From: Escherichia phage 1-6af
Sequence record: OR983333.1
Length of the DNA stretch: 64,000 nucleotides
Reading direction: 5' to 3' (one strand)
Both the position numbers and the translations under genes were made by a program. Positions 43,443 to 57,807 of this stretch are shown here, piece by piece. How positions within the stretch are numbered: the stretch's first letter is position 1; every line of letters begins with the position of its first letter. The notes under the pieces were generated by a model. It was not told where the DNA came from. It did no database searches and saw only the letters and a program-made list of their open reading frames with translations.

Positions 43443-43965
43443 AAGCTTTTGTTGGCCCTTGTTGGTTATTGTATGAACCTTTAGTTGCGTAGCTATCCTC
43501 TTCCGAGGATGAGTGTTTAAAGAATTCCATCTGACCGATACGCATTCCCGGCTTGATCAGCAGAGAGTGGTGCTGTAGGACGTTCTTGAATTCCATAGTT
43601 AACTGACTGCCATGCCAACCACCGTCAGCATGACCAGCGTGCATGTGCTCTAAGAAGCAACGACCGACAGTAGATCGTAGCATGAAGTCACAGCTAATGT
43701 TGTCTGGAAGGTTGAATGTCTCCACTGTATGAGCTAAGAAACACTCACCCGGTTTGATCACCAACCCTTCCTCTGGAATCATAACCTCATTGAAATTAGG
43801 GGATTCTTTAGCAGAGATATCAACAACCCCATTAGCTGCACCTTCCATCAGAACACGATCTCCAATACGAACATCAATGCTGGAGGAATTAACAGCTGAG
43901 TGTGGTGCATCAATAACACCATCATCAATTAATTTATGTAACTCTGGGCTTCCTAGTAAACTCAT
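43411..43965 (-). CDS. dcd: dCTP deaminase (dUTPase superfamily)
   Basis: N-terminal ...IDVRIGD and C-terminal G.QLTMEF.N....L.KPGMRIGQMEF as in Dcd. Confidence 0.7.
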   Translation of the reverse strand: MSLLGSPELHKLIDDGVIDAPHSAVNSSSIDVRIGDRVLMEGAANGVVDISAKESPNFNEVMIPEEGLVIKPGECFLAHTVETFNLPDNISCDFMLRSTVGRCFLEHMHAGHADGGWHGSQLTMEFKNVLQHHSLLIKPGMRIGQMEFFKHSSSEEDSYATKGSYNNQQGPTKAFGGTNHADML

Positions 43966-43974: not shown

Positions 43975-45288
43975 TTAGTTATTTGTTTCCATGTCAAAAG
44001 AGATTCCACGACCCGCTTCATCGGCAAACCGAACTGTACGGGTTTGAGGTTCTAATACTTCAGGGTTGTTGGCAATAAAGCGATCAGCGAGATTATCTAC
44101 CACATCTTGGGCCACACCTTCATCAGTCCACACAGCCCTAACAGGTGCGTTGATATCACCAACAGCAAAACCCTGACCAGAGAACTGGTGACGGCTAACA
44201 GTCAAGCCGTTTGATCGACCACGAGAAGGACTAGACATCCATTGCTCCATAGAATCACTTGTAATACCAAGAGCTTCTTCAAAAGATGTTCTACGAGAAG
44301 AGCTTAGATTTCGTGCTTCATTTGCTCGACGTCTTGTAGGGGCTACAAACACCCCTTCAATTGCATTGTGTCGGTTAGGTTCGTCTTCTCTACCAAGCAG
44401 ATCACCACCTGTATTAGTTGTTAAATTTGTCAACCCTTCAGACCAATACGCATGAATCTGACCGGAACCGTGAAGACTAGACATAATCTGAATCTCTTCA
44501 TAAGGGATTCCAAAAAATCGACTCATGTCTCGGTTAACACAATATAGAGCACTTGTTGTATCCTCAATAAGAGCAACCTGACCTATTTCATTAACAAGAT
44601 GACTGACTGGCTGAGGTGTAGGAAGGTATCGAGTTTGGGCCATATATTGATATGCAACAGATGGGGCTGAGAATCTTAACACTTGTGAATTAGGCCACTT
44701 TTTGTGAACGTATCTGATTTCACGACTAGAAACAACCACAGGGCAAGGGGCGGTCATAGCTAAATACCCATGAGGGGTCATGAATAAGTTGTCAAGAGTC
44801 ATCGCACCACGGCACATCATAGGAAAGTTATCCAATACCTCTTCGATAGAAGTAGGATAATTAAACATGAATTGGATACGAACCCCATTCCACTGAAACT
44901 CAATAATATCAGTGAATGTTAATTGAGAACCCCCAGCATAGGATTCGTTTGTAGCTTCAGCAAGAAGAGATGAATACTCAATATCTTGAGACTCAAGCCA
45001 CTCTTTAACGTTACTTTCAACTTCTCGTCCGAGATCTTGCCACTGCTCATGACGGATGAAAGTATTTCGAGTTCTTGGGGCCTGTCCTCTGACAATAAAG
45101 ATATCAATGTCATGCGGAGCTGTGTTATTAAGCACAGCATCACGAATAGCCCCACCAGTGATGATAGGACAAATACAGTCTGGAATCAAGTTGTTGTTAA
45201 TCAGCTGTTCAATGAAGTGACGACCAACAGTGATATCCGGTTGTTGAGCAACCTTATCTTCAATTCGGTTAATCGGGATAACAATCAT
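43975..45288 (-). CDS. CCA-adding/poly(A)-polymerase-type nucleotidyltransferase with long C-terminal extension
   Basis: ITGGAIRDAVL...HDIDIFI head-domain signature; start taken at ATG 45288 abutting exo gene stop. Confidence 0.5.
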   Translation of the reverse strand: MIVIPINRIEDKVAQQPDITVGRHFIEQLINNNLIPDCICPIITGGAIRDAVLNNTAPHDIDIFIVRGQAPRTRNTFIRHEQWQDLGREVESNVKEWLESQDIEYSSLLAEATNESYAGGSQLTFTDIIEFQWNGVRIQFMFNYPTSIEEVLDNFPMMCRGAMTLDNLFMTPHGYLAMTAPCPVVVSSREIRYVHKKWPNSQVLRFSAPSVAYQYMAQTRYLPTPQPVSHLVNEIGQVALIEDTTSALYCVNRDMSRFFGIPYEEIQIMSSLHGSGQIHAYWSEGLTNLTTNTGGDLLGREDEPNRHNAIEGVFVAPTRRRANEARNLSSSRRTSFEEALGITSDSMEQWMSSPSRGRSNGLTVSRHQFSGQGFAVGDINAPVRAVWTDEGVAQDVVDNLADRFIANNPEVLEPQTRTVRFADEAGRGISFDMETNN

Positions 45289-45289
45289 T

Positions 45290-45847
45290 TTACATTTTCC
45301 AATATAATGAAGGTGGGTCGTAAGGGTCAAATCCTGTGATTTCACACAAGAAAAGATAAACCTTAACAGTTAAGTTAACGTCCTGTTCACAATAAGTAAA
45401 CATATCTTCAGTGAAAGCATCCCATGCTTCCTCTTGCTCACCATAATCGCCCTTAAGTTCTCCTAAGAACTCACCCCACTGCTTCAAACCATGACCCCTT
45501 GGGCCACGTCTAGGGTCGCCTTTCGGATACTCAGGACTGTCACCAATACGGTCAGGTTTAAGATATCGACTAAGACATAAAGTGTCAAAGACGTTAAAAT
45601 TATATTTAATCAAAGAGGGATACATCTTCTTCAGAGCAGGTAAGTCGAAGTCAATAATATTATGACCCACGAGCACATCTGCTTCTGTCAGTTTACGAAT
45701 CCCGTCTTCGATTTGGTGAGGCCGATAGCCCCACCTTTCACCAGTTTCAACATCGAAGATATAAATACACCATACTTTAGTTATGTCATCGTACAGTGCA
45801 TTACTCTCGATATCGAATGCAAACACTTTCTTCTTTTTCTTTACCAC
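45290..45847 (-). CDS. DNA polymerase 3'-5' exonuclease domain (T7 gp5 N-terminal-like), separate gene
   Basis: [44 protein letters not shown] blocks align to T7 gp5 residues 1-190. Confidence 0.75.
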
Positions 45848-47631
45848 GGTGAAGCTCCATCTGCTTGGTTGACGAGAGAAGCTGCATCCTCTCCATTAGT
45901 TAAAACGAATGGATTATCTTCATCAACTTCAAAGTCTTCCCTCTCTACAAGTCTACCGGTTTCACTGATATACTTAGTATAACAGACACCTGTCTGACCG
46001 TAGTTGCGTTCTTTCAGTAATCGAATGACTGAGAGGTTCTTAGCTAAGCCGTCAGCTTGCTTGTCACGCTCAAAACCAATGATACACTGACACCAACGCA
46101 TAAGAGAACGAGAGCCAGTGAACTGCACTTCACGTACCTGTCCACCTTCTTCATGAGGAGCACCACCTGCCGGAGCATTAAGGTGAGATAACACGAAAGC
46201 GGTAAAGTCTAGTTCTTTACACATACCAGCAAGCTCGGAAGCAATCTTACTGATTTCAGTGTTAATCTCTGAAGGGGTTAAATGAGACACCAGAGCGGTA
46301 ATGTTATCAAGGATGATGAACTTACACTGGTTTTCAACTACCCAGAAACGAATACACTGTTTAATGTCTTCCCACTCATTCTGTCCGAAGTTGTCATACA
46401 AGAAGAATTTGTCTGCATAACGAAGTGCTTCATTACGCAAATCCTCCTCATCATATTCAACATCGGGTCGGTGGAAAGGAATTGATGCTGACTTACCAGC
46501 AATGTTCTTAACAGACATGCCTACCTTCTCTTCCAAGAAGAAGCCACCTCCATTAAAACCATGCTCTAAGCACAGATGAGCAACCAGCTCGTGAGCAATG
46601 AGTGTTTTACCACTACCAACCCCACCACCAATTGCTACCACCTCTCCCCATCGAATACCGAAGGTCATCTCATTCAGAGTCTTCCACGGATATGGGATAC
46701 CCCACTCCGCTTTCTTCAGAGCATCATCAAGGCAATCAAAGATTGTTACAGCTCCAGCAGGAGATTCCCGCTTTGCTGAATACTTGAGAATGTTGAATAA
46801 CTCTTGACCACGACCAGACAGAAGCATATCATTCGCATCCTTAATCTCTTTCTCCACACCGTTGTATGGGAAGGTTCCTTTAGGGATACGAGCAAACTTG
46901 ACATGAGGGAATAAAGAACGACCTTTTGTTAAAGCTATCTCACCTGCATCATCGTTGTCCATGCAGAGCACAACCTCCTCAAAACCATTTACGAAGTCTC
47001 GATTACGAGACAACACAGAAGAGATTGAACCTGCACCGAACGGTAAAGAAACACAGGCTGGTTTAATGTTTGTTGCATTTGTAAAAGCTGTAAGGACATG
47101 GAAACCAGACATACAAGATAGCGGGTCTTCAAAAATGAAGAGCTTCTTGTTGTACACATCTCCACGTTGAGCTTGTGCCATACCAAATAAATCTGCTTCT
47201 TTCACACTGCCGACATAATAAAACTTCTTATTATCTAGCAGCTTAACCTCGTAACCAACAATGTTTCCATCACGTTCGCGAGGAAAGAAGTAGCTGTCTG
47301 GAGTCTGACCGTCAGTTTGACTGAGGCCAATACGACACTCAAAACGCTCTGATACAGCTTTTGGGATTAAACGTCGAGTAAGCTCTCCCTGAGGAAGCTC
47401 TAAGCAATCATCTAAGACTTCTCTCAACTCTTCAGGGGATAACTCTTTTCTCTCGTTTGGAGTAGGTGTAGTGCCCTTTTCGAACACTTCGTAATTCCCA
47501 CAACGGTTACAACTTCCCCACTCCTCACCTGTCTCTTCGTTACGGAAGAGAATCATGTGGTTGTGGGTTTTATCACGACCATGAGAGATACATTCCTTAC
47601 AACCTGTGTCTCCCAAAATGATCTTTGACAT
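45841..47631 (-). CDS. primase-helicase (T7 gp4-like)
   Basis: N-terminal Cys4 zinc finger, TOPRIM-like region, Walker [10 protein letters not shown]. Confidence 0.8.
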
Positions 47632-47657: not shown

Positions 47658-47861
47658 TTAGTAGAACGAACGAATTTCATCCCACACTTGTTCCTGTTCT
47701 TTCCTATAAAAAGAAAGTTGGGTCTTGAACATCTCCACTGATGATTCAAAGTTTTTGGTTTGTGCAGCTTCAACGAAACGTTCATGTCGGTTGATTTTGC
47801 ACCGTAGCATTAAATACTTGGCTTCAAGTCTCCGAAGAGCCTGCCTTTTCTCAAGATTCAC
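47658..47861 (-). CDS. hypothetical protein (67 aa)
   Basis: ORF. Confidence 0.3.
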   Translation of the reverse strand: MNLEKRQALRRLEAKYLMLRCKINRHERFVEAAQTKNFESSVEMFKTQLSFYRKEQEQVWDEIRSFY

Positions 47862-48270
47862 TTTTCAGATACTCTGACCAGTCGCCAGATTCAACCAGAA
47901 CGTCTTGTTCTTCGTCGATGTGATAAATCCAAGCGATAACAGTTTCACCTGAGTCCATCTTAACAGCAATCTGAGTACGCTGATAGAAGCTGTCTTCAGG
48001 GCTATGTTTGTTGTAACCTTCCAGACGGTCATACGGACCTTCCAGACCTGCTTTGTCAGTAGCAAACACTTCTACACGAACAGGCTTATTATTATTGCTG
48101 TGTGTGAGAGAGATGCTTGGGAAGTAGGAACCACCATAACGGAACAGATCGAAGTTGTCTTCAGTCCAACCTTCACCAATTGACTTAGCACCAGCTCGGT
48201 CATTAACTAAATAGTTAGCTTGACCACGACGAAGAGAACCATAAGTTGCTACGTAAATTACTTCTGACAT
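47851..48270 (-). CDS. AIG2-like / gamma-glutamyl cyclotransferase-like protein
   Basis: N-terminal VATYGSLRRG (YGSL) motif and size. Confidence 0.5.
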   Translation of the reverse strand: MSEVIYVATYGSLRRGQANYLVNDRAGAKSIGEGWTEDNFDLFRYGGSYFPSISLTHSNNNKPVRVEVFATDKAGLEGPYDRLEGYNKHSPEDSFYQRTQIAVKMDSGETVIAWIYHIDEEQDVLVESGDWSEYLKSES

Positions 48271-48339
48271 TATCTATACCTTTGTTGGTTTGTTTAGTTT
48301 ATCCGAACTAGCCTCCTCTTTCGAAGAGGCTAAAGCAGA

Positions 48340-48525
48340 TTACTCTGTAATAAAGATTTTGATTACGCCACAGATCGCTGCACTTTCAAACACTGCAATA
48401 GCTTCACTTCCTTGAAAGAAGGCCACTTTGCCATCAGTGAAGTTAAACATATCAGCATCGAGGTCCATAGCTCGCATTTCACCAGCTGCATTGGTATCTT
48501 TAAACAGAACTTTATACTTATTCAC
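48340..48525 (-). CDS. hypothetical protein (61 aa)
   Basis: ORF in cassette. Confidence 0.3.
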   Translation of the reverse strand: MNKYKVLFKDTNAAGEMRAMDLDADMFNFTDGKVAFFQGSEAIAVFESAAICGVIKIFITE

Positions 48526-48770
48526 AGATAGGTCACTCCTTTGTCTTGTTGTGCTTCAGTGATGATACGTTCTACACATTCCATAGAATACTTATCACCA
48601 CGTTTCAGGAAAGTTACAATTGCAGAGAATTGATTACCAATCATTCGCTGATTAGTAATACCCCACTCCTCACACAATTTACGCAACTCTTTACGAGAGC
48701 CTACAATAAGAGGCTCTTTTTGTTCTATCATTCCATTTTGTACTAGATCTTCCAATGAAAACATATCCAT
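48522..48770 (-). CDS. hypothetical protein (82 aa)
   Basis: ORF in cassette. Confidence 0.3.
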   Translation of the reverse strand: MDMFSLEDLVQNGMIEQKEPLIVGSRKELRKLCEEWGITNQRMIGNQFSAIVTFLKRGDKYSMECVERIITEAQQDKGVTYL

Positions 48771-48776
48771 ATATCC

Positions 48777-49973
48777 TTAGTAGTTTACAACAGTGCCATC
48801 ATTCAGGGTAATGCTATTAATCTGCAACACACGACCAAGCTGACGATCACTAATTGGAGCATTCCAGCCAGAGCGGTAGAAGTTACGACCGCAGAAGAAA
48901 ACAATTACGTTACTTGCTACAGTTGAACCGTTTTCAGGATGCTTGATGTTAGCGATGTAATAACCACGACGCAGATTACGACGGGTGATCGGGGTGATCT
49001 CTAACCCTTGCTCTTCAACTTGCATCGTTTCAGGAACAGGTTCCGAAGATTCTTCAGCAACTGGCTCAGCTGTTAATGCAAAGTTCTCATCATCTGCTGA
49101 TTCAGCAAATTCTTCTTCCGCTTCTTCAACAGGCAGTTGGTAAGCAACACGATAGTCAGGTTCAACACCAGAGAAGCTCTTAACAAACTCAACGATATTG
49201 TGAGTGTAAGTCTCCAGAGTTGTACCAGTCAGTCCCGGAGCTGTATTTACTTCCAGAACCCAAGCGTTATTCCCTTTACTAATCAGATCAACAGCACCGA
49301 AGTTTAAGCCCAGAGCAGATACAGCTTTGTGAGCTTGAATCAGAACTTGATCAGGAGGAGCTTCAGTGAATGCGTTAGAATAAACCCAACCAGTGTGATG
49401 GTTACGAATATCTTCACGGTAGCTTTCCAGTTCACGATATCCATTACGACGAATCTTCTTCTGAACGTAAGTGATAACACCTTCAAACACATGAACACGC
49501 CATTCACGACGTGGGCCTTGAATACCTTTCGTATACAGAGGAGCACTTGCAACACCTTCTCCCGGAAGACGAACGGTGATACCTTCACCAGAGTGACCAG
49601 TTAAGGTTGCACGTTCATAAACAATTTCGGTTCGGTTCCAGTTCAGAGCTAATTCGTGATCGATAGTGTATTCAACAGTCTTAACTTCAGCCAAACGCAA
49701 TGCGTTGAACGCTGCAATCTTGTTAGCCGCTCGGTTCAGAGCTTCAACAGGGTTCAATACGGTTGCACCACCAAAGAAAGAAGCATCATAACGGCGGTTG
49801 CCATAGTTTACAACAATATCACCAGCTCGAGAACGATAACGAGAGCCTTCTGATACCAAAGACATTACGTTAGCATTTAAGCGGAGTTCCTGAATCTTAG
49901 TATTAATTGCAGAAGTAAGTTCACGAACTGAATCGGAAGGGCCATAAGGAAGAACACGGATACGAGTAGTCAT
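48777..49973 (-). CDS. ATP-grasp ligase
   Basis: C-terminal WVLEVNTAPGLTG (EVN..PG) hallmark. Confidence 0.6.
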   Translation of the reverse strand: MTTRIRVLPYGPSDSVRELTSAINTKIQELRLNANVMSLVSEGSRYRSRAGDIVVNYGNRRYDASFFGGATVLNPVEALNRAANKIAAFNALRLAEVKTVEYTIDHELALNWNRTEIVYERATLTGHSGEGITVRLPGEGVASAPLYTKGIQGPRREWRVHVFEGVITYVQKKIRRNGYRELESYREDIRNHHTGWVYSNAFTEAPPDQVLIQAHKAVSALGLNFGAVDLISKGNNAWVLEVNTAPGLTGTTLETYTHNIVEFVKSFSGVEPDYRVAYQLPVEEAEEEFAESADDENFALTAEPVAEESSEPVPETMQVEEQGLEITPITRRNLRRGYYIANIKHPENGSTVASNVIVFFCGRNFYRSGWNAPISDRQLGRVLQINSITLNDGTVVNY

Positions 49974-49975
49974 TG

Positions 49976-50200
49976 TTAGATACCTTTAAGTTTAAGAATT
50001 TCGTTACGAGTTTTTTGAATCTGAGCTTCAATTTCGAAGTAGTCGTTGAACGCATCGTTCTCTACTTCATCGGATGGTGCATCAATCAGACCGAAAGCGA
50101 ACGGATACAGCTTTCGCTGCTCCGTTACTAATTCGATATGAACTCCCATATAATACTGTAGGAGAGTGATCTTTGGTTTCTTAGGAACCAGATTTGACAT
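49976..50200 (-). CDS. hypothetical protein (74 aa)
   Basis: ORF in cassette. Confidence 0.3.
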   Translation of the reverse strand: MSNLVPKKPKITLLQYYMGVHIELVTEQRKLYPFAFGLIDAPSDEVENDAFNDYFEIEAQIQKTRNEILKLKGI

Positions 50201-50414
50201 GAGGTTCTACCTTAATGCCTTTGATTTTTACATAATCAGCAAGCACGTTGTTGATCACCGTTGGGAAAGGAACCTCAACCTGTGTTTCAAGTACTTGACC
50301 AATACCAGCTTGCATCCACTTTTGGATTGCACGAAGGTTATCACATCCTGTGCTCGTCATCGGGATACGTCGAGTAGTTACAACGTTATCCAGCATCATC
50401 TTACGAATTTCCAT
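50181..50414 (-). CDS. hypothetical protein (77 aa)
   Basis: ORF in cassette. Confidence 0.3.
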   Translation of the reverse strand: MEIRKMMLDNVVTTRRIPMTSTGCDNLRAIQKWMQAGIGQVLETQVEVPFPTVINNVLADYVKIKGIKVEPHVKSGS

Positions 50415-50416
50415 AC

Positions 50417-52443
50417 TTAACCTCTATTCAATGAACATTTAGGAGAATTACAATAAACTTGATTCATAGAACCAAGCGTACAACTTTCAGCATCGCGCCA
50501 CGGAATCTGCTTAAAACACTCTGAGCAGTATCCAAGGGTTGACCACATGGCTTTGGTGAAGTCAGTGCTTCGGTTTCCGTCGAAGCTGACAACAGTTTTG
50601 CGGAGAGTTGTTCGTGATTCAGGAAACACACCTGCTTTCTCAGCAGGTTCCTCCTTTTTTGGCTTAGTTGAGATTGCAAAAATACTGTTGCTACGTTTCT
50701 CAACATAAGCATCAACAACATCCTCCAGAGTGATGCCTGTCTGTTTCGCTGAGGAAGGTAATACAGTCATACGACCAATCATATCTTCAGTTACACGTAA
50801 AGCAAACTCAGGACGACGGGCGTTTGTTGTATCTGTTGCTTTAATCCATACATAACCATCTTTGATCGTAGCATTAGATACTTTCTTCTTTACCTCTACA
50901 GCGCAGGCTTTACAGATATCTTCACCGCGAAGACGACTAAGTTCATCATCGAACTCATTCTCTGTTTTAACTTCACCACAGATTTCACAAACACCAATAG
51001 GAGTCTCCTCCTCTTCTTCCTCTTTAGGTTTAGTCAAACCTTCCAGACATTCAGGATGCCAGTAGCACTGATATGCGAAGACTGCTTTAGGTGCATCCTT
51101 CCAATCAATGTGTTTGTCACAACCACCACAATCACCATGAGAATGTGCTTCCCAGAATTTACGAGTGATAGTAACGCCATTCTTGTTGACGAAACTATCA
51201 TTCATGTCAAAAGGGATATCATCATCAAAGTCAGCAGTAGTAGACTCAGGCTCCTTTTTCTCCAGAGATGGGTCAACAAAACGACCTGCTGTGATCACTA
51301 AGCGAACCATAGCATTAACTTCGGAGATACAGGATACTGTCCCACGGTAAACAATTTTAGGGTCTTTCAGGGCATCCTGATAAGCCTTAATATCTACGTT
51401 ATGGACATCACCTTCGATATACTCTTGAGATTTCTCATCGTAGATATAACCAATCATCTTACCACGAGAAGGAACAGCACCAGCAGTTGCATAAGGAACA
51501 AACTCATGCGGAGTGATTTCCACAGTCATATCGCGGCGAATATCAATGTTTCGATCACTTGCGATTTTGTTTTGACTTACCACTGCGTTTCTTCGACGAA
51601 CATCTGCCGCTGTCACTCCCGGCTTCGTGTCGTAGGGATTGCTTGTACTGCTTTTTGAGGAACTTTGATAGTTGCTTTGGCTGTAGTTGTTCGAGTAATA
51701 ACTGCCCCAACGATTGGCTACCGTAAAAACCGGAAGCTCGTGGGCGACCTCTTCAACCAGAGTCATGCCGTTGTTTGACATATCAAAGATATACTCTGTA
51801 CCAACTTTACATTCAAAATGCTCGTCAATACGGTTCTTATGAGACTTAGAACGCTTCAGAATCCACATCAACATATCTTCTTCAGAAGCACCAAACCAAT
51901 CTCTGTTACAACGTGCGAGGTGGAAAGGACGCTCTTCGTTACGAATGATATGAAGGCGGTTATCAGAAGCATCATGCCAGATTAAGGTGAAAGCACCATC
52001 CAGCTTTTGAATAGTCTCTGCTGCACCGATAGTGTTAATAGAGTGGCAGATGTTCTCGCTGTCTACCTCGAAGCTTTTGCTGTCAGGTAACAGATCTTGG
52101 TCCATCAAGGTTCCATTATGAACCAGAGTGATGTTACCATGTTGGAAAGGATGGGCGTTCTTGGCGTTAACTGCACCTTTCGTTGCATGACGACTGTGAC
52201 CAACAATCCATGAAGGTGCTACAGTGTAAGCTGTTTCACCAGTGGTGTGCTTCTTGTACTCATCTTGTAGGATGAATGCGAAAGAAGGAAGAGCTTCTTT
52301 ATAAGTGAAGACTTCCTTAGTGCTTTTACGCTGACCAAAGATACCGGAGGAATGTTGTCCTCGGAATACTCCAGCATAAAAGAGTTGGTTGAATACGTCT
52401 AAATCAGTGCTTGACAGATTACCGCCAGCTAATACGATGCCAC
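50417..52443 (-). CDS. class-II (Ntn) glutamine amidotransferase-like protein with C-terminal zinc-ribbon region; frame-broken N-terminus
   Basis: CGIVLAGG ... RGQHSSGIF ... AHPF.HGNITLVHNGTL resembles PurF/AsnB N-terminal domain; needs frame change near 52376-52381 and has no canonical start at Cys codon. Confidence 0.5.
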
Positions 52444-52526
52444 AAATTTTCTAATCCACCTGAAGGGTAAACCCTTTCATCTAATTAACCTTTAAATTGT
52501 GCCCCTTTGTCAGAGGCACCCATTGA

Positions 52527-53630
52527 TTACAGCGCTTGTTCTAACTGATTTTCCAGATGGTCTGGAATGTACCCTGTGATATTGCTATCACTGTGACCTG
52601 ACTCACGTAGTAAGTCAAAAATAGCACGGATACGTTGTTCTGGAGCGTGTCTTACTTGAGATAGGTCTGCTGTACGAAGCATAACCAAAATCTCTTGATA
52701 CAAGTTGTTAGCGTTCCCTCGGACATAACCAAGGAATCCATAGAAGTCTGACATAAGACGCAAGTCAACAAGAACATCTCCGTTGGAGTTGGTTCGACGT
52801 AAACGAATACGACCAGACTGTTCTACTTCATGAGAACGACAATACAAAACATCACGGGCCATACAATAACCTGAATGCAAATCCGATTCATCCAGATTGT
52901 AATCCAGAGGAAGGTAAGGAAGCATTGGGGCAAATCGTACAGTATTTAAATGCTCAACAAACTGATCGTTGCTCATATCTGCGTTATCTAAAGCCAGCTT
53001 CTTCAGCATCAAGAAGCGGTTAACCAGATTGAGAAGTTGACCACGTTTCCACTTAGGCTCGCTGATACGGAACTCAATCGAACCGTATTGGGCAAGTGGC
53101 AGAAGGTTCAGGGATGTATACTTATCCCATGAACGAACCAGACGGTTGAAGAACTCTTCACCATCGTAGTTAAATGCGTCAGAGGCATTCATTACCTGTG
53201 CTTGTACCACTGCAAACGCAGGGCAGAAATTGCTACGGTAACGATGGTAGCCTGAGCACTTGAACAACATCTTTTCGTAGAAGGTCCAAGCGAGAATGGT
53301 TTTCTTGAGGATATTACTATCAGCATCCCTCATATCCATATGAACGTGAGTAGAGCAACGCCAAGTCCCCTCGGCGTGCGATTCAGCTACTGCTTCACTC
53401 AGGTTGTTGATAGCGTCTAACAACTCCTGTCCGTTGTAAGGTCGTGAACATACCATTTCACAACCATTACGCAGGGAACCATCCTCTGTACAATCCCACA
53501 TATCTGCTTCGATATGATCGGAACCTTCGAGTTCAAGTTCAATACCGACACCGCACTGAAGTGCAATTGAACTATGCGCCTCAGTTAAACGTCCTTCTCG
53601 ATATCCAAAAGTTTGCGCTACAGTTGTCAT
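52527..53630 (-). CDS. amidoligase-like (glutamine synthetase-like) protein
   Basis: GVGIELELEG G.E.E-type motif; gene neighbourhood with GATase and AIG2 genes. Confidence 0.4.
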   Translation of the reverse strand: MTTVAQTFGYREGRLTEAHSSIALQCGVGIELELEGSDHIEADMWDCTEDGSLRNGCEMVCSRPYNGQELLDAINNLSEAVAESHAEGTWRCSTHVHMDMRDADSNILKKTILAWTFYEKMLFKCSGYHRYRSNFCPAFAVVQAQVMNASDAFNYDGEEFFNRLVRSWDKYTSLNLLPLAQYGSIEFRISEPKWKRGQLLNLVNRFLMLKKLALDNADMSNDQFVEHLNTVRFAPMLPYLPLDYNLDESDLHSGYCMARDVLYCRSHEVEQSGRIRLRRTNSNGDVLVDLRLMSDFYGFLGYVRGNANNLYQEILVMLRTADLSQVRHAPEQRIRAIFDLLRESGHSDSNITGYIPDHLENQLEQAL

Positions 53631-54244
53631 AACGAATCCACCAACGTAATATTATAATTGCTAAGGTTTTCAGAGATGTGATGAAAATGCTCCAGAAGTC
53701 GCATCGGTTGCTGACCGTAAGAGTCACGAGGTGCTTCCAGATCTACTTGTCCTACCAGTGCACCTTTATAATGCACCTTACCATCCGTAGGGTTGATGTA
53801 AATGTAACGAGTAACCAATCCATCAAATTCAGGATTGAACAGACTGTAAACCATTTCACCAGAGATCGAACGACCAATCCCAGGAGCGTTTCGAATCTTG
53901 TTACCCATCAAACCCTTCGCTCTCTGACGAACAGGGTTGATGTGAGTCCAGCTTACAGTGTTACCGTTATGGAACAGATAACCAACATCAGGCGATTCAA
54001 GAATCAAGGTTGGGTCGAACACTGGAATATTCATCGTAGTGTTTCGAAGATTCCCTTGCTCATTCTTGTACCACTGCTCTACAACAAAGTACAAAGCCTG
54101 TTCTGCTTCGTGAGAGAAGTCATCGCTGCGGAAGTTACCGCTCTGCTCAACACCAATCACAAAACACGGAAGGTTGATATTGCCTGCCCGTTTAGCAATC
54201 CATGTACCATTATAGTAATGAGAAAAATCAGCTACTAAGCTCAC
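53627..54244 (-). CDS. hypothetical protein (205 aa)
   Basis: Translationally coupled in cassette. Confidence 0.35.
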   Translation of the reverse strand: MSLVADFSHYYNGTWIAKRAGNINLPCFVIGVEQSGNFRSDDFSHEAEQALYFVVEQWYKNEQGNLRNTTMNIPVFDPTLILESPDVGYLFHNGNTVSWTHINPVRQRAKGLMGNKIRNAPGIGRSISGEMVYSLFNPEFDGLVTRYIYINPTDGKVHYKGALVGQVDLEAPRDSYGQQPMRLLEHFHHISENLSNYNITLVDSL

Positions 54245-54253
54245 GATAACCTC

Positions 54254-55060
54254 TTATGCTACCTGAAGGAGTTTGATCTGCTGGTCAGCTTCTTTAACGT
54301 TGTTCCCGTTAATGATTTCATGAAGCTTCTCAATCGGAAGGCGAGAGTGCAATGCCATCAGAGTGGACATATCACACTGCTGAACAACCTTGTCAACCTG
54401 ATCGTAAACAAACTTACGGTTTTCACGATCACTAATCCAGAAGTTAGACAGAGAGCGGTATTCAATACCATAGTCTTTATAACGGATTGCAGATGCTTTA
54501 CCGTAGAGTTCTTTACGGCGAGTATCTTTGTCCATAATTACTGCTGGGAGAGACAGGAAGTAGTCACACAGCACACCAAGCATCATCTGAGTTTGCAAAG
54601 TGATATCCAAAGCACCAACTACACCAAGATGTACGTGACCACCGGCAGTACGAAGCCCCTTATTCTGGGAAGTCGGGGATGGGTTCTTCTGACCAGTGAA
54701 GGCGTTGAAATCAGGAGTGCACCCGAAGATGAACGCTGATTCATTAAAGGTCTTCATCTCTTCTTCAGTGAAGATGTGAGAGCTAACACCAGGAGCTGTT
54801 TCCATGTCCAGTTTGTTCAGGACATTATTGGTGAGATCAATACCACGTTGCATGTTATCGTTAAACGCTTCAAAACCGCTCTGTGGGTCAATATCAAACT
54901 CAGCCAATACGTTGTCCTCTTGGAGACGAACATCCTTAGCCAGAGCGATCTTATCGTCCTTAGAGCAGCCTAATAAACCGGCTACAGAAGTGATGATACC
55001 ATTGCTAGTACGAACAAACATTTCAGGGTCAGAGCCGATAAGGAATTTGCGCTTAGTCAT
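54254..55060 (-). CDS. hypothetical protein (268 aa)
   Basis: ORF in cassette. Confidence 0.35.
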   Translation of the reverse strand: MTKRKFLIGSDPEMFVRTSNGIITSVAGLLGCSKDDKIALAKDVRLQEDNVLAEFDIDPQSGFEAFNDNMQRGIDLTNNVLNKLDMETAPGVSSHIFTEEEMKTFNESAFIFGCTPDFNAFTGQKNPSPTSQNKGLRTAGGHVHLGVVGALDITLQTQMMLGVLCDYFLSLPAVIMDKDTRRKELYGKASAIRYKDYGIEYRSLSNFWISDRENRKFVYDQVDKVVQQCDMSTLMALHSRLPIEKLHEIINGNNVKEADQQIKLLQVA

Positions 55061-56024
55061 TGTAATACTCCACTAGTTCAGAAAAGAGAGATGAGATTGT
55101 GTTACCAACTTCTTCAAGAGTAAGACCGGAATCTGCTCCAGTTCTCTGAATCAGTCGGGCTGTAAAGTTTTGTACTGTAATGTTTCCCAACTTGTCATCT
55201 ATTGTTTCACGTTTGTGACCATAACAGTTGGACCAGAGTCTTAACCACTCTGACATTGTTTCATACTCGTCTGGGTCTTGATCTTTAGCACGAGCAAATC
55301 TTCGTAAGGCATCTTGGTTATGGTTACGAACATAACCATGCCCGTTGTCGCCAACACCGAAGGGGTTTTGAACCCATACTTGTTTCGTGTATTCATCAGA
55401 GTCAACAACCAAAGGAAGGAATGCTGCTGCTGACATATTGTTGTTAATAACAATAGAGGTGCTCTCGCTACTCCCATTGGCTCTTCCTCGTTGAGACCAT
55501 CCACCGAAGAAGTCACGACCCAACCCAGCTAACACTAGAGCGATGCCGATGCGTTTACGCTTAAGCCACTCTTCCCTGTCTTCAATTCCTTCTGCTAGGA
55601 AATCCATTCCACGATACTGCCCTTCCAGAATGCTACGGAAGAGCATGAGTCCTGTGAAGATCTGATCTGCTGGATGCTCACGAAGGTTGACAGCAACACT
55701 ATTCGCTGAAGTGATCGTAAATACGTCACGATAGCAAGACATGGAGTTCATAATGTCTGCTGTTTCAACCAAATTCTTTTCAATATCAGATGTAACATGA
55801 CCATGAAAAGAGTGAGTCCAGTAATTCAACATCTCCAGTTGCAAGTTGATATCACGGTTGAAGCGACGATAGCGCCCTTCTTCCGTGATAACTTCACCAT
55901 TAATGTCATTTACACACTGGCCTTGCATGTAGTTGTGGATACCGAAGCACCCACGACCTAAGAACTTCTGTTCCCCTAAATCCTGTTGAAGATTCTGAGG
56001 TACGATCGTTGTGGAGATTGACAT
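55053..56024 (-). CDS. hypothetical protein (323 aa)
   Basis: ORF in cassette. Confidence 0.35.
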   Translation of the reverse strand: MSISTTIVPQNLQQDLGEQKFLGRGCFGIHNYMQGQCVNDINGEVITEEGRYRRFNRDINLQLEMLNYWTHSFHGHVTSDIEKNLVETADIMNSMSCYRDVFTITSANSVAVNLREHPADQIFTGLMLFRSILEGQYRGMDFLAEGIEDREEWLKRKRIGIALVLAGLGRDFFGGWSQRGRANGSSESTSIVINNNMSAAAFLPLVVDSDEYTKQVWVQNPFGVGDNGHGYVRNHNQDALRRFARAKDQDPDEYETMSEWLRLWSNCYGHKRETIDDKLGNITVQNFTARLIQRTGADSGLTLEEVGNTISSLFSELVEYYND

Positions 56025-56034
56025 AACTAACCTT

Positions 56035-57234
56035 TTATTTTCCTAAAAATAATCCGCTCATAACACCATCCCACTCAGAGGATGGAATCACTGAATACTC
56101 CGAACTTTGGTCCAGAGTTCCACTACTAAATCGCTGAACAATGTTGTAGATGTTGAACAGGTCTTTAGCCTCGGCACGAATGCCATATACTAATTTATTT
56201 GCTGTTCTTTCATCTTTAGAGACACGACGAGCAAAGTTAACCAAAAGGTTATCACATTTCAGGATTTCTGATTCACTCTCTACTAGATCGGGGTGCATTA
56301 CTGGCAAGAACATTGAGTTGTTAACTCGCAATTCTGCTGTTTCGTCGTTCTCATAATGAATCCACTTAAAGTCTTCATCACGGAAGTGACCGCATCCATC
56401 TCTGTATGACTGTTGACGCCAAGGCACTTGAAATGCTTCAGCGTATTTATCAGCCATACCAACTGTAAATAGCGACGCTGGGAAGATACAAGCATCCCAA
56501 TCATTACCAACCAGAGTTGCTTTCGTTTCACCCAAGAGGTTAGTGTAAGTGCTAACCATTCGTGAGTAAACATAAGCCTGAAGGATTGTCCAGCCTTCAA
56601 CCAACCATTTGTGGAGGAAGGTTTCAACTTGACTCTCTTCATCTTCACAATAGAAGGTTCGATCTAACATCAAATAGAATAGACAACGATCAGCAGGAAC
56701 ATTTTCAGTTGCTACCCCCATAAAACCTTTATCGTGCCAGCGTAAACAGGAGGGACGATCTTTGTCCACAAATGCTTCCATAGCTTCCAGTACAGCACGA
56801 GGTGTGGTTCGATGTTCAGGGTTTTTGTCGTTCCAACGTTCAATGTTATTCTTAGGGGGCGTGTCTTCATCTTCATACGAACACCAACTTAAAGCTTCAG
56901 CTACATGCTTTTCATCACGCCAACTTCTAAAGCCTAACATCTTCATATGAGTTCCAGAGTTCCAGATATGCTTGATTTTACACATATCCATCTCTCGGCT
57001 TAACAGGAACTCTTCCCCATCAGCACTACGAACGTTAGATTCTTCATGCCACACTCGAACGTGCATATTCCATCCATGAGTTGCCTCATACATGTTAGGG
57101 TCGAAGTAGTCATCATATTCTTCGTCGTCTTCATCAACGCCACCATTATAGTTGCGAAGCTGAAGGAACCCATAACAAGGAGGACTAACCGTTAAAACAT
57201 TACCTTCAGTATCTTCTAATGTTACTGGAAACAT
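56035..57234 (-). CDS. hypothetical protein (399 aa)
   Basis: ORF in cassette. Confidence 0.35.
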   Translation of the reverse strand: MFPVTLEDTEGNVLTVSPPCYGFLQLRNYNGGVDEDDEEYDDYFDPNMYEATHGWNMHVRVWHEESNVRSADGEEFLLSREMDMCKIKHIWNSGTHMKMLGFRSWRDEKHVAEALSWCSYEDEDTPPKNNIERWNDKNPEHRTTPRAVLEAMEAFVDKDRPSCLRWHDKGFMGVATENVPADRCLFYLMLDRTFYCEDEESQVETFLHKWLVEGWTILQAYVYSRMVSTYTNLLGETKATLVGNDWDACIFPASLFTVGMADKYAEAFQVPWRQQSYRDGCGHFRDEDFKWIHYENDETAELRVNNSMFLPVMHPDLVESESEILKCDNLLVNFARRVSKDERTANKLVYGIRAEAKDLFNIYNIVQRFSSGTLDQSSEYSVIPSSEWDGVMSGLFLGK

Positions 57235-57245: not shown

Positions 57246-57608
57246 CTATTGGTTTTTAATTAACTCAATCGACTTACGGATATAAAGAATATCTCGGAAG
57301 TTTCGATAGTTGTTCATAAATTGATGCTTCTGGAACTCAGCTTCTTCCAGAGCTTTCTTTGCTTCTGCGTAGTTTTTACGGGCAAGATGTACAACCCGCT
57401 CTGGTAACACGTTTGCACGATGGATTAGATACTTATGAGCTTTCATGTTACTTTGCTCACGAGCAATCTTACCTTTAGCAACCTTGATACCATTTGCAAT
57501 CCAAGCAAGTTCTTGCTCAAGCTCATCGTTGGACATTCCACCGAGGTTTGATGCAACCTTGTTCAGAGTTTCAATATTAACGTTGCCCTTGATGGGACGT
57601 GTATTCAT
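57246..57608 (-). CDS. hypothetical protein (120 aa)
   Basis: ORF. Confidence 0.35.
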   Translation of the reverse strand: MNTRPIKGNVNIETLNKVASNLGGMSNDELEQELAWIANGIKVAKGKIAREQSNMKAHKYLIHRANVLPERVVHLARKNYAEAKKALEEAEFQKHQFMNNYRNFRDILYIRKSIELIKNQ

Positions 57609-57780: not shown

Positions 57781-57807
57781 TTAAAAAAGGACTCTCCGAA
57801 AAGAGTC
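57781..57807 (-). terminator. rho-independent terminator (minus strand)
   Basis: gactct-tttcgg-agagtc hairpin followed by T6 on minus strand. Confidence 0.55.

What the first reader, a model, noticed from the sequence alone, without database searches (positions are those of the whole stretch)
47851..57234. 9.4 kb phage cassette: AIG2/GGCT + ATP-grasp + Ntn-type amidotransferase + amidoligase-like + four large unknown proteins
Thirteen co-directional, tightly packed leftward genes have no replication, virion or lysis role. Recognisable motifs are YGSL (AIG2/GGCT-like, 47851..48270), EVN..PG (ATP-grasp, 48777..49973), an N-terminal CGI nucleophile with a PurF-like Ntn domain plus C-terminal zinc ribbons (50417..52443), and a G.E.E glutamine-synthetase-like amidoligase (52527..53630). 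Four proteins of 205-399 aa (53627..57234) have no motif I can recognise. This gene neighbourhood resembles the computationally predicted amide-bond-forming systems (amidoligase with GATase-like thiol peptidase or AIG2 cyclotransferase), whose product and target are, as far as I know, undefined. Two hypotheses: (a) synthesis or removal of a gamma-glutamyl/peptide tag on a phage or host protein; (b) post-replicative hypermodification of DNA bases, given ThyX, dCTP deaminase and a P-loop kinase elsewhere in the window. The physical grouping is seen in sequence; the function is inference.
Basis: partly seen in the sequence, partly recalled or inferred. Interest (0 to 1): 0.85.

Follow-up and report, generated by a model that had tools for sequence, protein, structure and literature searches.

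The report
Conserved phage amide-ligase gene cassette
This is the phiEco32/Kuravirus copy of a gene cassette (three ATP-dependent amide ligases, a glutamine amidotransferase, a gamma-glutamyl cyclotransferase and several phage-only proteins) that was catalogued years ago and is widespread in podoviruses, but whose product and target have never been tested; I found that it carries a copy of the host SSB protein's docking peptide, which points towards the DNA-replication machinery rather than the cell wall.

Summary
The cassette is real. Profile searches confirm GGACT/AIG2, a RimK/Ddl-like ATP-grasp, a class-II glutamine amidotransferase (GATase) and Amidoligase_2. Three details need correcting. 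There are 12 genes in the interval, not 13. The GATase starts at an ATT codon (52447). One of the four "unknowns" is PF14395, the "phiEco32-like COOH-NH2 ligase type 2".

The window is a Kuravirus, 95-99% identical to FH3, SU10 and phiEco32, so this is the prototype of a system already described computationally (Iyer 2009; Hardies 2013). Duhaime 2017 calls it a "peptidoglycan modification cassette". I found no experimental test.

New here:
- Across 54 phage lineages the core is GATase, two ligases, an SH3-like adaptor and the ATP-grasp, often with GGACT and a K-like protein, usually beside primase/helicase or polymerase genes.
- The 323- and 399-aa proteins look like diverged paralogs of a phage-only family; the 399-aa model matches no solved fold.
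- The GATase linker contains DFDDDIPF, the E. coli SSB C-terminal tip. The motif recurs in other lineages.

Best reading (about 0.3): an early multi-enzyme machine that builds, amidates and trims glutamate-derived amide adducts on a target in the replication/repair machinery. Relatives' DNA is cut by ordinary restriction enzymes, which argues against global DNA hypermodification. Function remains inference.

The parts
47658..47861 (-). 67-aa conserved small ORF (N); overlaps the GGACT gene by 11 nt and lies between the cassette and the primase/helicase gene (45841-47631)
   Evidence: homologs in the same position in L004, L005 and L012-L017
47851..48270 (-). gamma-glutamyl(amine) cyclotransferase, AIG2/GGACT family (A, 139 aa); YGSL motif and RLEGY glutamate present
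   Evidence: Pfam PF06094 3.4e-17, 63.6 bits against cut-off 22.8; PHROG 2520 1e-44; detected in the SU10 proteome
48340..48525 (-). 61-aa ORF (B), lineage-specific; its C-terminal Glu is not conserved
48522..48770 (-). 82-aa conserved ORF (C) directly after the ATP-grasp gene; function unknown
   Evidence: no Pfam hit
48777..49973 (-). ATP-grasp ligase (D, 398 aa), RimK/MptN/Ddl-like at superfamily level (EVNTAPG motif), followed by an acidic linker and an ~80-aa C-terminal domain of unknown function
   Evidence: PHROG 2599 1.4e-184 and PHROG 20552 for aa 317-398. Pfam RimK/Ddl_C hits below gathering. NCBIfam MptN 2.6e-8 and rimK_fam 6.6e-7, both far below cut-off. PDB sequence search finds Ddl and alpha-L-glutamate ligase at E 1e-3 to 1e-2. 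Detected in the SU10 proteome.
49976..50200 (-). 74-aa conserved ORF (E)
50181..50414 (-). 77-aa DUF7195 protein (F); found directly after the GATase gene in Gordonclarkvirinae, Grimontviridae, the Aeromonas phage and Bruynoghevirus
   Evidence: Pfam PF23825 4.7e-17; the PAA2 homolog scores 1.3e-18
50417..52447 (-). Class-II (Ntn) glutamine amidotransferase (G, 676 aa). ATT start, then Cys. GATase domain about 51743-52447, then a middle domain, an acidic linker and three Cys4-type zinc-ribbon-like modules (51047-51130, 50903-50989, 50435-50527).
   Evidence: Pfam GATase_6 1.7e-14. NCBIfam GlmS/PurF/AsnB/EgtC N-domains only. The glutamine-site residues R85, N110-G111 and D128 are invariant in 9 diverse homologs. 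No known domain in the C-terminal half. Coordinates checked.
51209..51232 (-). DFDDDIPF, identical to the last 8 residues of E. coli SSB (the SSB-Ct docking peptide). Here it is internal, sits in an acidic linker, and is followed by Asp.
   Evidence: It is the only such site in the window. Conserved in L004, L005, L008 and L012-L019. A loose form of the motif gives 20 hits against 3.7 expected in 1,476 ORFs, 11 of them in GATases. SSB-Ct literature.
52451..52480 (-). 9-codon upstream ORF (MKGFTLQVD*) ending 3 nt before the ATT start; a Shine-Dalgarno-like AGGTGG lies inside it
   Evidence: conserved in SU10 and FH3 and L012-L015, L017
52527..53630 (-). Amidoligase_2 carboxylate-amine ligase (H, 367 aa), glutamine-synthetase/GCS2 fold; GIELELEG and HVH motifs
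   Evidence: Pfam PF12224 5.3e-8, 33.5 bits against 22; PHROG 7469 1.4e-158; homologs in 301 phage records
53627..54244 (-). 205-aa adaptor-like protein (I). SH3/Tudor-like beta-barrels plus a highly conserved, low-confidence basic loop (aa 83-118, 53891-53998: ESPDVGY...NPVRQRAKGLMGNKIR). Always encoded between the two GS-fold ligases.
54254..55060 (-). COOH-NH2 ligase type 2 (J, 268 aa), GCS2-like; the most conserved cassette protein
   Evidence: Pfam PF14395 2.3e-8, 34 bits against 25; PHROG 3815 3e-118; 48-50% identical to the GAP52 and Privateer homologs
55053..56024 (-). 323-aa protein (K) of a phage-only family; N-terminal CFGxxN motif, conserved PADxxFTGLMxxR
   Evidence: No Pfam, PDB or PADLOC hit. 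17 homolog clusters. hhalign to the Grimontviridae tandem proteins gives 70% probability, E 4e-5. Positional homologs of ~300 aa with a CF[GA] motif occur in environmental cassettes.
56035..57234 (-). 399-aa protein (L), probable diverged paralog of K; conserved Cys/His/Asp/Arg positions; confident model with no solved-fold match
57246..57608 (-). 120-aa conserved ORF (M) upstream of L; travels with the cassette in Gordonclarkvirinae-like phages
   Evidence: PHROG 11370; homologs in L004, L005 and L012-L018; probably the 13.9-kDa SU10 gp91 seen by mass spectrometry

Best explanation
The cassette is the Kuravirus version of an ancient, early-expressed podovirus module. I think it most likely works as one multi-enzyme assembly that makes and edits glutamate-derived amide bonds.

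Proposed roles:
- The two glutamine-synthetase-fold ligases (H and J) activate carboxylates with ATP and join them to amines, giving gamma-glutamyl-type bonds.
- The RimK-like ATP-grasp (D) adds a further amino acid, probably glutamate.
- The Ntn amidotransferase (G) either feeds ammonia from glutamine to amidate an activated carboxylate, or hydrolyses a gamma-glutamyl amide.
- The GGACT enzyme (A) removes gamma-glutamyl groups as 5-oxoproline.
- The SH3-like protein I and the K/L proteins hold or process the substrate.

The assembly is tethered, through a copy of the SSB C-terminal peptide in the GATase linker, to a protein that normally binds the SSB tail. Candidates are the phage primase/helicase or polymerase, or a host SSB-interacting protein. 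The target would therefore be a macromolecule of the replication/repair machinery, most probably a protein amino or carboxyl group, and not the cell wall.

Shown: family memberships, intact catalytic motifs, conservation and gene order, the SSB-tail motif and its recurrence. Inferred: complex formation, the order of steps, glutamate as the building block, docking on the replisome, and the identity of the target.
For: 1. Enzyme families and intact active-site motifs. G keeps Cys1 and the Arg, Asn-Gly and Asp residues that bind a free gamma-glutamyl moiety. GGACT likewise needs a free alpha-amino gamma-glutamyl substrate (established enzymology of the GGCT/GGACT and Ntn-GATase families). D's best matches are alpha-L-glutamate ligases (MptN, RimK). 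Three environmental variants add a Peptidase_C26 gamma-glutamyl hydrolase-type gene.
2. The genes behave as one unit: overlapping or abutting reading frames, and the same order across Gordonclarkvirinae, Grimontviridae, Aeromonas, Pseudomonas and environmental phages. All ~97 Gordonclarkvirinae records retain it, including the reduced 68-69 kb genomes.
3. Signs of a macromolecular target: the non-enzymatic SH3/Tudor-like protein I with a conserved flexible basic loop, DUF7195, three zinc-ribbon-like modules on G, and an extra domain on D.
4. The SSB-tail mimic. DFDDDIPF in G is identical to the E. coli SSB tip. It is conserved while its flanks vary. It recurs in GATases of 8 of 54 lineages, at a different place in the Aeromonas phage GATase, and as the true C-terminus (..DEDIPF*..NDDIPF*..FDDKIPF*) of a small protein coupled to the ATP-grasp gene in Grimontviridae. 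The loose motif gives 20 hits against 3.7 expected.
5. Primase/helicase or DNA-polymerase genes lie within 10 kb in 45 of 54 lineages, and directly downstream in the window. No SSB gene was recognised in the window, so host SSB is probably used.
6. The proteins are made: ATP-grasp, GATase, GGACT and two others were detected by mass spectrometry in SU10 lysate and classed as early products.
Against: - No substrate is identified, and no experiment exists.
- Characterised members of all five enzyme families mostly act on small molecules.
- GGACT is known for free gamma-glutamyl-amines, not protein-bound ones.
- In the window the SSB-like peptide is internal, whereas known SSB-Ct pockets use the terminal carboxylate. 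The conserved following Asp/Glu may or may not substitute for it.
- The motif is absent from most lineages (46 of 54) and from Bruynoghevirus, so docking cannot be essential to the core chemistry.
- Zinc ribbons are missing from the short environmental GATases.
- Proximity to replication genes may only reflect inherited genome architecture.
- The published hypothesis (peptidoglycan) is not excluded by anything I could compute.
Confidence: 0.3

Rival explanations
1. Published hypothesis: a 'peptidoglycan modification cassette'. The three ligases rebuild the unusual bonds of the murein stem peptide (gamma-D-Glu, mDAP, D-Ala-D-Ala). The GATase amidates it and GGACT trims it. This alters the wall after infection, for instance to exclude superinfecting phages or to tune lysis.
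For: Proposed by Iyer 2009 and Hardies 2013, as summarised. D's closest solved and Pfam relatives include D-Ala-D-Ala ligases. Glutamine-dependent amidation of murein carboxylates is established chemistry (MurT/GatD; the AsnB-type LtsA; own knowledge). The target would be universal, which fits the wide host range. An endolysin gene lies about 1 kb upstream of the cassette in GAP52, Privateer and 7-11.
Against: No Mur-ligase, UDP-sugar-binding, membrane or export feature was found in any cassette protein. The SSB-tail motif, the zinc-ribbon modules and the position next to replication genes have no role in this model. The idea has never been tested. In Kuravirus the cassette is not next to lysis genes.
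Confidence: 0.2
2. A soluble-metabolite pathway (auxiliary metabolism). The enzymes make or recycle a small glutamate- or glutamine-derived compound that supports DNA synthesis, such as a gamma-glutamyl-polyamine, a cofactor polyglutamate tail or a nucleotide-pool intermediate. The pathway may be organised as a metabolon tethered to the replisome.
For: The characterised relatives act on small molecules: GCS2/GS, MptN/CofF/RimK, EgtC, PuuD-type C26 and GGACT (own knowledge). Five to seven enzymes in series look like a pathway. Neighbouring genes are RNR, ThyX, dCTP deaminase, a MazG-like gene and polymerase. A tethered metabolon would also explain the SSB-tail motif, by analogy with the T4 dNTP-synthetase complex (own knowledge).
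Against: The universal SH3-like adaptor with a basic loop, DUF7195 and the K/L proteins are not typical of metabolic pathways. No candidate metabolite accounts for all the enzymes. There are no transporters or recognisable cofactor-binding domains.
Confidence: 0.2
3. Covalent DNA (or dNTP) hypermodification. The ligases attach an amino-acid-derived group to bases during or after replication, which would explain the broad resistance of Gordonclarkvirinae to restriction-modification systems.
For: [quoted passage not shown] The cassette is universal in the subfamily. The SSB-tail motif, the zinc-ribbon modules and the adjacency to the replisome genes fit an enzyme working at the fork.
Against: Virion DNA of phage tf, which has the complete cassette, is cut by RsaI, HpaI, EcoRV, SmaI and HaeIII, was cloned, and was Sanger-sequenced directly. 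Delta (PaP3 species) DNA is cut by BamHI. No kinase, glycosylase, TGT/DpdA, hydroxymethylase or pyrophosphorylase-like domain was found in the cassette. Unmodified DNA offers no carboxylate and only poor amine nucleophiles for these ligases (own knowledge). The BASEL authors themselves point to other genes.
Confidence: 0.12

Closest known systems
phiEco32-type amidoligase / GAT-II / ATP-grasp / AIG2 phage system (Iyer et al. 2009; Hardies et al. 2013; 'peptidoglycan modification cassette' in Duhaime et al. 2017)
   Same: It is this system. The window is 95-99% identical to phiEco32, SU10 and FH3. The same Pfam families are present (PF14395 is named after phiEco32; PF12224, PF13522, PF06094). 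The seven-gene core and its distribution (7-11, tf, LUZ24, PaP3, RIO-1) also match.
   Different: Nothing structural differs. What I add is the K/L paralog family with no solved-fold match, the SH3-like adaptor, the recurrent SSB-tail motif, the ATT start, and restriction-digest evidence from relatives. The published functional label is an untested hypothesis.
RimK / ribosomal protein S6 (and MptN, CofF, LysX) alpha-L-glutamate ligases
   Same: ATP-grasp with an EVNxxPG-type motif. These give the best family-level matches. In Grimontviridae the gene is translationally coupled to a small acidic-tailed protein, reminiscent of RimK-S6 or LysX-LysW.
   Different: Scores are far below the family cut-offs (33 bits against 350; 29 against 143). 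There is an extra C-terminal domain. No conserved C-terminal Glu acceptor protein exists in Kuravirus.
EgtA/EgtC, PuuA/PuuD and BtrJ/BtrG 'gamma-glutamyl on, gamma-glutamyl off' pathways
   Same: All combine a GS/GCS2-fold or ATP-grasp gamma-glutamyl ligase with a GATase-fold amidohydrolase and/or a GGCT-fold cyclotransferase that later removes the group. G gives weak EgtC hits (2.5e-4; 5.7e-7 for PAA2). C26 genes occur in some variants. The tf GGCT is annotated as BtrG-like.
   Different: No carrier protein, PLP enzyme, methyltransferase or oxygenase accompanies the set. The substrate is unknown. The resemblance is in logic, not orthology.
Pup ligase PafA / deamidase Dop (GS-fold protein tagging)
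   Same: GS-fold carboxylate-amine ligases that form a gamma-glutamyl-lysine isopeptide on proteins. This is the precedent for a protein target (own knowledge).
   Different: No Pup-like small protein with a conserved C-terminal Gln or Glu, and no proteasome link. H and J belong to other GS-fold families.
MurT/GatD and AsnB-type (LtsA/AsnB1) peptidoglycan amidation
   Same: A glutamine amidotransferase paired with an ATP-dependent ligase that converts a carboxylate to a carboxamide.
   Different: MurT is a Mur-ligase and GatD a class-I GATase. Here the ligases have the GS fold, the GATase is class II, and it carries zinc-ribbon modules and an SSB-tail motif.
E. coli SSB C-terminal tip (SSB-Ct, MDFDDDIPF) and its interaction network
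   Same: Eight identical residues, DFDDDIPF, in an acidic and apparently unstructured linker.
   Different: In Kuravirus the motif is internal and followed by Asp, so it lacks the terminal carboxylate used by known SSB-Ct pockets. It is terminal only in the Grimontviridae small proteins.

Membership tests
phiEco32-type phage amidoligase cassette (Iyer 2009 / Hardies 2013) | Co-directional cluster holding GAT-II, Amidoligase_2, COOH-NH2 ligase type 2, ATP-grasp and AIG2/GGCT genes | tested here: met
   All five found by Pfam/PHROG in 47851-55060; near-identical to phiEco32 itself
phiEco32-type phage amidoligase cassette (Iyer 2009 / Hardies 2013) | Conserved as a unit across unrelated-host podoviruses | tested here: met
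   Of 54 lineages (GATase clustered at 70% identity): J 52, H 52, D 50, I at least 40, A 33. Same order in GAP52, Privateer, 7-11, APT65, PAA2 and tf.
phiEco32-type phage amidoligase cassette (Iyer 2009 / Hardies 2013) | Acts on peptidoglycan stem peptides (the published functional claim) | not testable with these tools
   No murein-related domain detected. Requires muropeptide analysis.
Class-II (Ntn) glutamine amidotransferase | Nucleophile Cys as the first residue after the initiator | tested here: met
   ATT-TGT at 52447-52442. Homologs have ATG, TTG or ATT directly before Cys.
Class-II (Ntn) glutamine amidotransferase | Conserved Arg, Asn-Gly and Asp of the glutamine site | tested here: met
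   R85, N110-G111 and D128 invariant in the 9-sequence alignment A5; GATase_6 at 54.4 bits against 27
Class-II (Ntn) glutamine amidotransferase | Fused acceptor domain of a known type (GlmS SIS, PurF PRTase, AsnB synthetase) | tested here: not met
   Only the N-domain aligns to GlmS, PurF, AsnB and EgtC. The C-terminal 440 aa has no Pfam or PDB match. The database label 'GlmS' is therefore unsupported.
RimK-family alpha-L-glutamate ligase | Scores above the family thresholds | tested here: not met
   RimK 16.9 bits against 21; rimK_fam 29 against 143; MptN 33 against 350. This is ATP-grasp superfamily membership only. The label 'S6 glutaminyl transferase' is a PHROG name, not a tested function.
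GGACT / AIG2-like gamma-glutamyl cyclotransferase | Family profile above threshold, with the YGSL motif and the catalytic Glu | tested here: met
   63.6 bits against 22.8; YGSLRRG and RLEGY seen in the sequence
GS/GCS2-fold carboxylate-amine ligases (PF12224, PF14395) | Family profiles above gathering score | tested here: met
   H 33.5 bits against 22; J 34 against 25; the PAA2 homologs likewise
Known phage DNA-hypermodification pathways (5-hmdU-derived, 7-deazaguanine, Mom, Z-base) | Presence of the hallmark enzymes: 5-HMUDK kinase, aGPT-Pplase, dUMP/dCMP hydroxymethylase, DpdA/QueC, PurZ, Mom | tested here: not met
   None detected among the cassette proteins. The window has ThyX and dCTP deaminase only. 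The rest of the window was not scanned exhaustively.
Known phage DNA-hypermodification pathways | Virion DNA refractory to type II restriction enzymes | tested here: inconclusive
   Relatives with the cassette are cut normally in vitro. Kuraviruses resist RM in vivo. No in-vitro data for Kuravirus were found.
Carrier-protein tagging systems (Pup/PafA, LysW/LysX) | Small protein with a conserved C-terminal Glu or Gln encoded next to the ligase | tested here: not met
   The 61-aa ORF ends in Glu, but its homologs end in ..KPQ and ..PES. The other small ORFs have unrelated ends.
SSB-Ct docking peptide | Acidic D-D-D-I-P-F sequence | tested here: met
   DFDDDIPF at 51209-51232; matches the SSB-Ct of the literature
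SSB-Ct docking peptide | Terminal Phe with a free alpha-carboxylate | tested here: not met
   Internal in the window and followed by D414. Met only in the Grimontviridae small proteins.

The most novel reading that the evidence does not exclude
The seven-gene 'peptidoglycan modification cassette' is misnamed. On this reading it is a replisome-docked protein- or DNA-modifying machine. It is recruited by a mimic of the SSB C-terminal tail to SSB-tail-binding replication or repair proteins. There it installs and trims glutamyl or amide adducts, using a new enzyme fold (the K/L family), to take over or protect phage DNA replication. This would possibly underlie the unexplained pan-RM resistance of Gordonclarkvirinae.
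Probability: 0.15. Interest if true: 0.9.

Novelty: already known. Interest (0 to 1): 0.55.

Why it matters
The cassette is one of the most widespread uncharacterised multi-enzyme modules in lytic podoviruses. It occurs in E. coli, Salmonella, Proteus, Cronobacter, Aeromonas and Pseudomonas phages, including therapy candidates, and in many marine phages. It has carried an untested 'cell-wall modification' label for more than a decade.

If it acts at the replication or repair machinery, that would reveal a new kind of host takeover or genome protection based on amide ligation, and give a function to a protein family with no solved-fold match. It might also explain why Kuraviruses ignore restriction systems.

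The SSB-tail motif gives a concrete, cheap experimental handle: pull-downs, peptide competition and point mutants.

Tried and rejected
1. LysW- or Pup-like carrier idea. The 61-aa ORF ends in Glu, but this is not conserved in homologs. Rejected.
2. Frameshift or pseudogene in the GATase. This was suggested by the 563-aa ORF from the ORF listing. Alignment with SU10 and FH3 shows no indel; the gene simply starts at ATT.
3. K and L as obvious paralogs by sequence. Direct hhalign is not significant (probability 0.1%). The link holds only transitively through the Grimontviridae tandem proteins (40-70% probability, pairwise E 1e-4 to 4e-5) and through Foldseek.
5. Domain fusions for the L family. 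An exhaustive HMM search found only 23 clusters, all stand-alone.
6. Defence or anti-defence similarity. No PADLOC hits.
7. Link to the nicks of tf-like phages. The motif TACTRTGMC is not enriched in the window (2 found against 1.96 expected).
8. Promoter and terminator scan. Nothing above background except a terminator-like hairpin at 57790-57807, upstream of the block.
9. Known domains in the C-terminal parts of G, D and H. None found.
10. Papers not held in the library: Iyer 2009, Savalia 2008 and Hardies 2013. Their content is cited only through papers that summarise them.

Full report
**Identity of the window**

The interval 47851-57234 matches 98 phage records. It is 99.0% identical to Escherichia phage FH3 and about 95% identical to SU10, ES17, Bas90 and Bas91. 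Its proteins are 95-99% identical to those of phiEco32. The window is therefore a Kuravirus (Gordonclarkvirinae), a C3-morphotype E. coli podophage.

The cassette lies in the leftward early/middle block. It sits directly upstream of the primase/helicase gene (45841-47631), the DNA-polymerase exonuclease subunit, a CCA-enzyme-like nucleotidyltransferase and dCTP deaminase.

**Check of the observation**

The interval holds twelve minus-strand ORFs. Gaps run from -20 to +11 nt, except for 69 nt after the GGACT gene and 79 nt between the amidoligase and GATase genes.

| Gene | Family | Score |
|---|---|---|
| 47851-48270 | GGACT PF06094 | 63.6 bits, cut-off 22.8 |
| GATase | GATase_6 PF13522 | 54.4 bits, cut-off 27 |
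| 52527-53630 | Amidoligase_2 PF12224 | 33.5 bits, cut-off 22 |
| 48777-49973 | ATP-grasp | Recognisable only at superfamily level: Pfam RimK/Ddl_C below gathering, NCBIfam MptN/RimK far below cut-off, PHROG 2599 at 1e-184 |

Three corrections are needed.

- The 268-aa protein at 54254-55060 is PF14395, 'Phage phiEco32-like COOH.NH2 ligase-type 2' (34 bits against 25). The cassette therefore has three ligases and three large unknowns.
- The GATase gene is 50417-52447. Its only possible start is ATT, directly before the Ntn nucleophile Cys. A Shine-Dalgarno-like AGGTGG lies 8 nt upstream, and a 9-codon upstream ORF ends 3 nt before it. RefSeq annotates the same 2031-nt gene in SU10.
- Two conserved small ORFs flank the interval, at 47658-47861 and 57246-57608, and travel with the cassette.

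**What is already known**

Pfam names a family after this cassette. Papers citing Iyer et al. 2009 say the amidoligase and GATase were proposed to modify the cell wall and block superinfection in phiEco32.

Duhaime et al. [quoted passage not shown] They list it as conserved in RIO-1, phiEco32, 7-11, PA11, tf, MR299-2, LUZ24, PaP3 and CW02, citing Hardies et al. 2013.

I found no experimental test in the held library. The primary papers were not held. SU10 proteomics detected the ATP-grasp, GATase, GGACT and two further cassette-region proteins, and classed them as early products.

**Extent and core of the module**

In two metagenomic phages where the 399-aa protein is only 35-39% identical, all genes keep their order. 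That order is: 120-aa ORF, L, K, J, I, H, G, DUF7195, 74-aa ORF, ATP-grasp, 80-aa ORF, further small ORFs, GGACT, 68-aa ORF, primase/helicase.

The following phages have two tandem ~300-aa proteins, then J, I, H, G, a DUF7195-like gene and D:
- Grimontviridae: GAP52, Privateer and 7-11
- Aeromonas phage APT65
- Pseudomonas Bruynoghevirus PAA2
- Pseudomonas Krylovvirus tf

GGACT (A) follows close behind in APT65, PAA2 and tf, where a primase/helicase gene comes next. In 7-11 a GGACT-like gene lies about 4 kb further on, in Privateer (L021) an HMM-labelled copy lies further downstream, and none is annotated in the GAP52 stretch.

A scan of IMG/VR with a GATase alignment returned 80 loci. I labelled them with family HMMs and clustered them at 70% GATase identity, which gave 54 lineages:

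| Component | Lineages (of 54) |
|---|---|
| J | 52 |
| H | 52 |
| D | 50 |
| I | at least 40 (an unlabelled ~200-aa ORF sits in its place in others) |
| A | 33 |
| Primase/helicase or polymerase/exonuclease within 10 kb | 45 |

Many also have a ~300-aa ORF upstream with an N-terminal CF[GA]xxN motif like K's. Three add a Peptidase_C26 gene. This independently recovers the published seven-gene core. It also shows that the Kuravirus version is an expanded form.

**The unknown proteins**

hhalign gives the following:
- The two Grimontviridae proteins to each other: 97.5% probability.
- K to them: 70% probability, E 4e-5.
- L to them: 57% probability, E 1e-4.
- Environmental K-like proteins to them: 40% probability, E 3e-4.
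- K against L directly: not significant.

I conclude, with moderate support, that K and L are diverged paralogs of one phage-only family. They share conserved Cys, His, Asp and Arg positions. An exhaustive HMM search finds only 23 L-type clusters among 1.84 billion proteins, with no fusions.

**The SSB-tail motif**

Residues 406-413 of the GATase (51209-51232) read DFDDDIPF, followed by Asp. The stretch lies in an acidic linker between the middle domain and three zinc-ribbon-like modules. This is the C-terminal tip of E. coli SSB, the peptide through which SSB recruits its partner proteins.

Evidence that the motif is functional:
- It is the only such site in the window.
- It is conserved in diverged Gordonclarkvirinae-like GATases while the flanks vary.
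- It appears at a different position in the Aeromonas phage GATase, as DFDNIPFD.
- In Grimontviridae it is absent from the GATase but forms the true C-terminus (..DEDIPF*..NDDIPF*..FDDKIPF*) of a small protein whose gene overlaps the end of the ATP-grasp gene.
- Across 1,476 ORFs of the 80 loci, a loose form of the motif occurs 20 times against 3.7 expected. Eleven hits are in GATases, three in the Grimontviridae-type small proteins, and two in probable phage SSBs.
- It occurs in GATases of 8 of the 54 lineages.

No SSB gene was recognised in the window, so the phage probably uses host SSB. I infer that the cassette proteins dock on something that binds the SSB tail.

The main caveat is that the motif is internal here, whereas known pockets use the terminal carboxylate. 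It is also absent from most lineages.

**Mechanism**

The conserved residues of G bind a free gamma-glutamyl moiety, either glutamine or an N5-substituted glutamine (family knowledge). GGACT and the C26 enzymes act on the same class of compound. H and J belong to the fold that activates carboxylates as acyl phosphates. D is nearest to the alpha-L-glutamate ligases.

The consistent theme is ATP-dependent formation, amidation and removal of glutamate-derived amide bonds. The adaptor-like proteins, the zinc-ribbon modules and the SSB-tail motif suggest a macromolecular target in the replication or repair sphere. I favour a protein target, at about 0.3.

Rivals:
- **Peptidoglycan hypothesis (published), 0.2.** Supported by the Ddl-like hits and by the endolysin gene nearby in Grimontviridae. 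It leaves the SSB motif unexplained.
- **Soluble-metabolite pathway, possibly a tethered metabolon, 0.2.**
- **DNA hypermodification, 0.12.** The BASEL study reports unexplained RM resistance in this subfamily. Against this, tf carries the complete cassette, yet its virion DNA is cut by five type II enzymes and was Sanger-sequenced directly. Delta DNA is cut by BamHI. No hallmark DNA-modification enzyme was detected in the cassette.

**Verdict**

The cassette is already in the literature, so it is not a discovery as an entity.

It remains an open functional problem. The SSB-tail mimic, the K/L family without a solved-fold match, and the recurrent ATT start are, as far as the held literature shows, new and testable clues. 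Interest: 0.55.

Noticed in passing
window 52445-52447 (ATT) and 52451-52480 (uORF), minus strand; also L012-L015, L017, L045, L059, L060, L067, L068, L070: The GATase gene starts with the rare codon ATT directly before the catalytic Cys. It is preceded by AGGTGG and by a 9-codon upstream ORF that ends 3 nt earlier. ATT starts recur in 11 of 73 homologous phage GATases from several unrelated lineages (60 ATG, 1 TTG), which suggests selected low or IF3-sensitive translation. ORF finders that require ATG/GTG/TTG truncate the protein to 563 aa, as in the FH3 and original SU10 annotations.
   Followed up: partly
L060 6601-7347, L079 9261-10013, L087 2207-2965: Three environmental versions of the cassette carry an extra Peptidase_C26 (PuuD / gamma-glutamyl hydrolase-type, class-I GATase fold) gene next to the class-II GATase (Pfam 1e-19 to 1e-21). 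This fits gamma-glutamyl chemistry.
   Followed up: partly
L006 13804-14049, L007 14277-14558, L009 14047-14304: In Grimontviridae, a small protein (81-93 aa) whose gene overlaps the 3' end of the ATP-grasp gene ends in an SSB-like tail (DEDIPF, NDDIPF, FDDKIPF). The 7-11 and APT65 amidoligases also have long acidic C-terminal tails (…DEEDDEDTANF*, …EEDWEDEDPLDA*).
   Followed up: partly
window 43975-45345 and 43411-43965: A 456-aa nucleotidyltransferase with a weak PolyA_pol/CCA-enzyme head domain sits next to dCTP deaminase. The BASEL authors suggest this pair, rather than the cassette, might underlie a DNA modification. Not examined further.
   Followed up: no
window 41557-42159: The ORF annotated 'DNA binding protein' in relatives looks Dps/ferritin-like from its sequence and from the SU10 paper's note. 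No SSB gene was recognised among the replication-region ORFs I scanned.
   Followed up: partly
L004 1646-4143, L005 1456-3940, L006 1-492, L009 1-1684, L010 1-1769: Larger relatives carry PRPP-synthetase-like plus NAMPT (NAD salvage), TerC/TerD and NUDIX genes a few kb upstream of the cassette. The Kuravirus window lacks these.
   Followed up: no
L092 9585-9956 (tf_26); L011 10361-10738: In tf, a ~125-aa ORF annotated as MazG-like NTP pyrophosphohydrolase sits between GGACT and primase/helicase. PAA2 has an ORF of similar size in the same position (no Pfam hit). In Kuravirus the position is taken by the unrelated 67-aa ORF.
   Followed up: no
L004 14699-15109; UFV-P2 ORF24 (literature): HNH homing-endonuclease genes are inserted between the amidoligase and GATase genes in two unrelated phages. 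This is the same intergenic gap that is 79 nt long and holds the uORF in the window.
   Followed up: no
window 48271-48339 vs L001 6422-6631: SU10, Bas91 and others have an extra 69-aa ORF between the GGACT gene and the 61-aa ORF. It is absent from the window and from FH3, which accounts for the two-piece DNA matches.
   Followed up: no
window 57790-57807, minus strand: A terminator-like hairpin (GACTCTTTTCGGAGAGTC followed by a T-run) lies in the 226-nt gap upstream of the 50-aa and 120-aa ORFs that precede the cassette. It may mark the start of the transcription unit.
   Followed up: no
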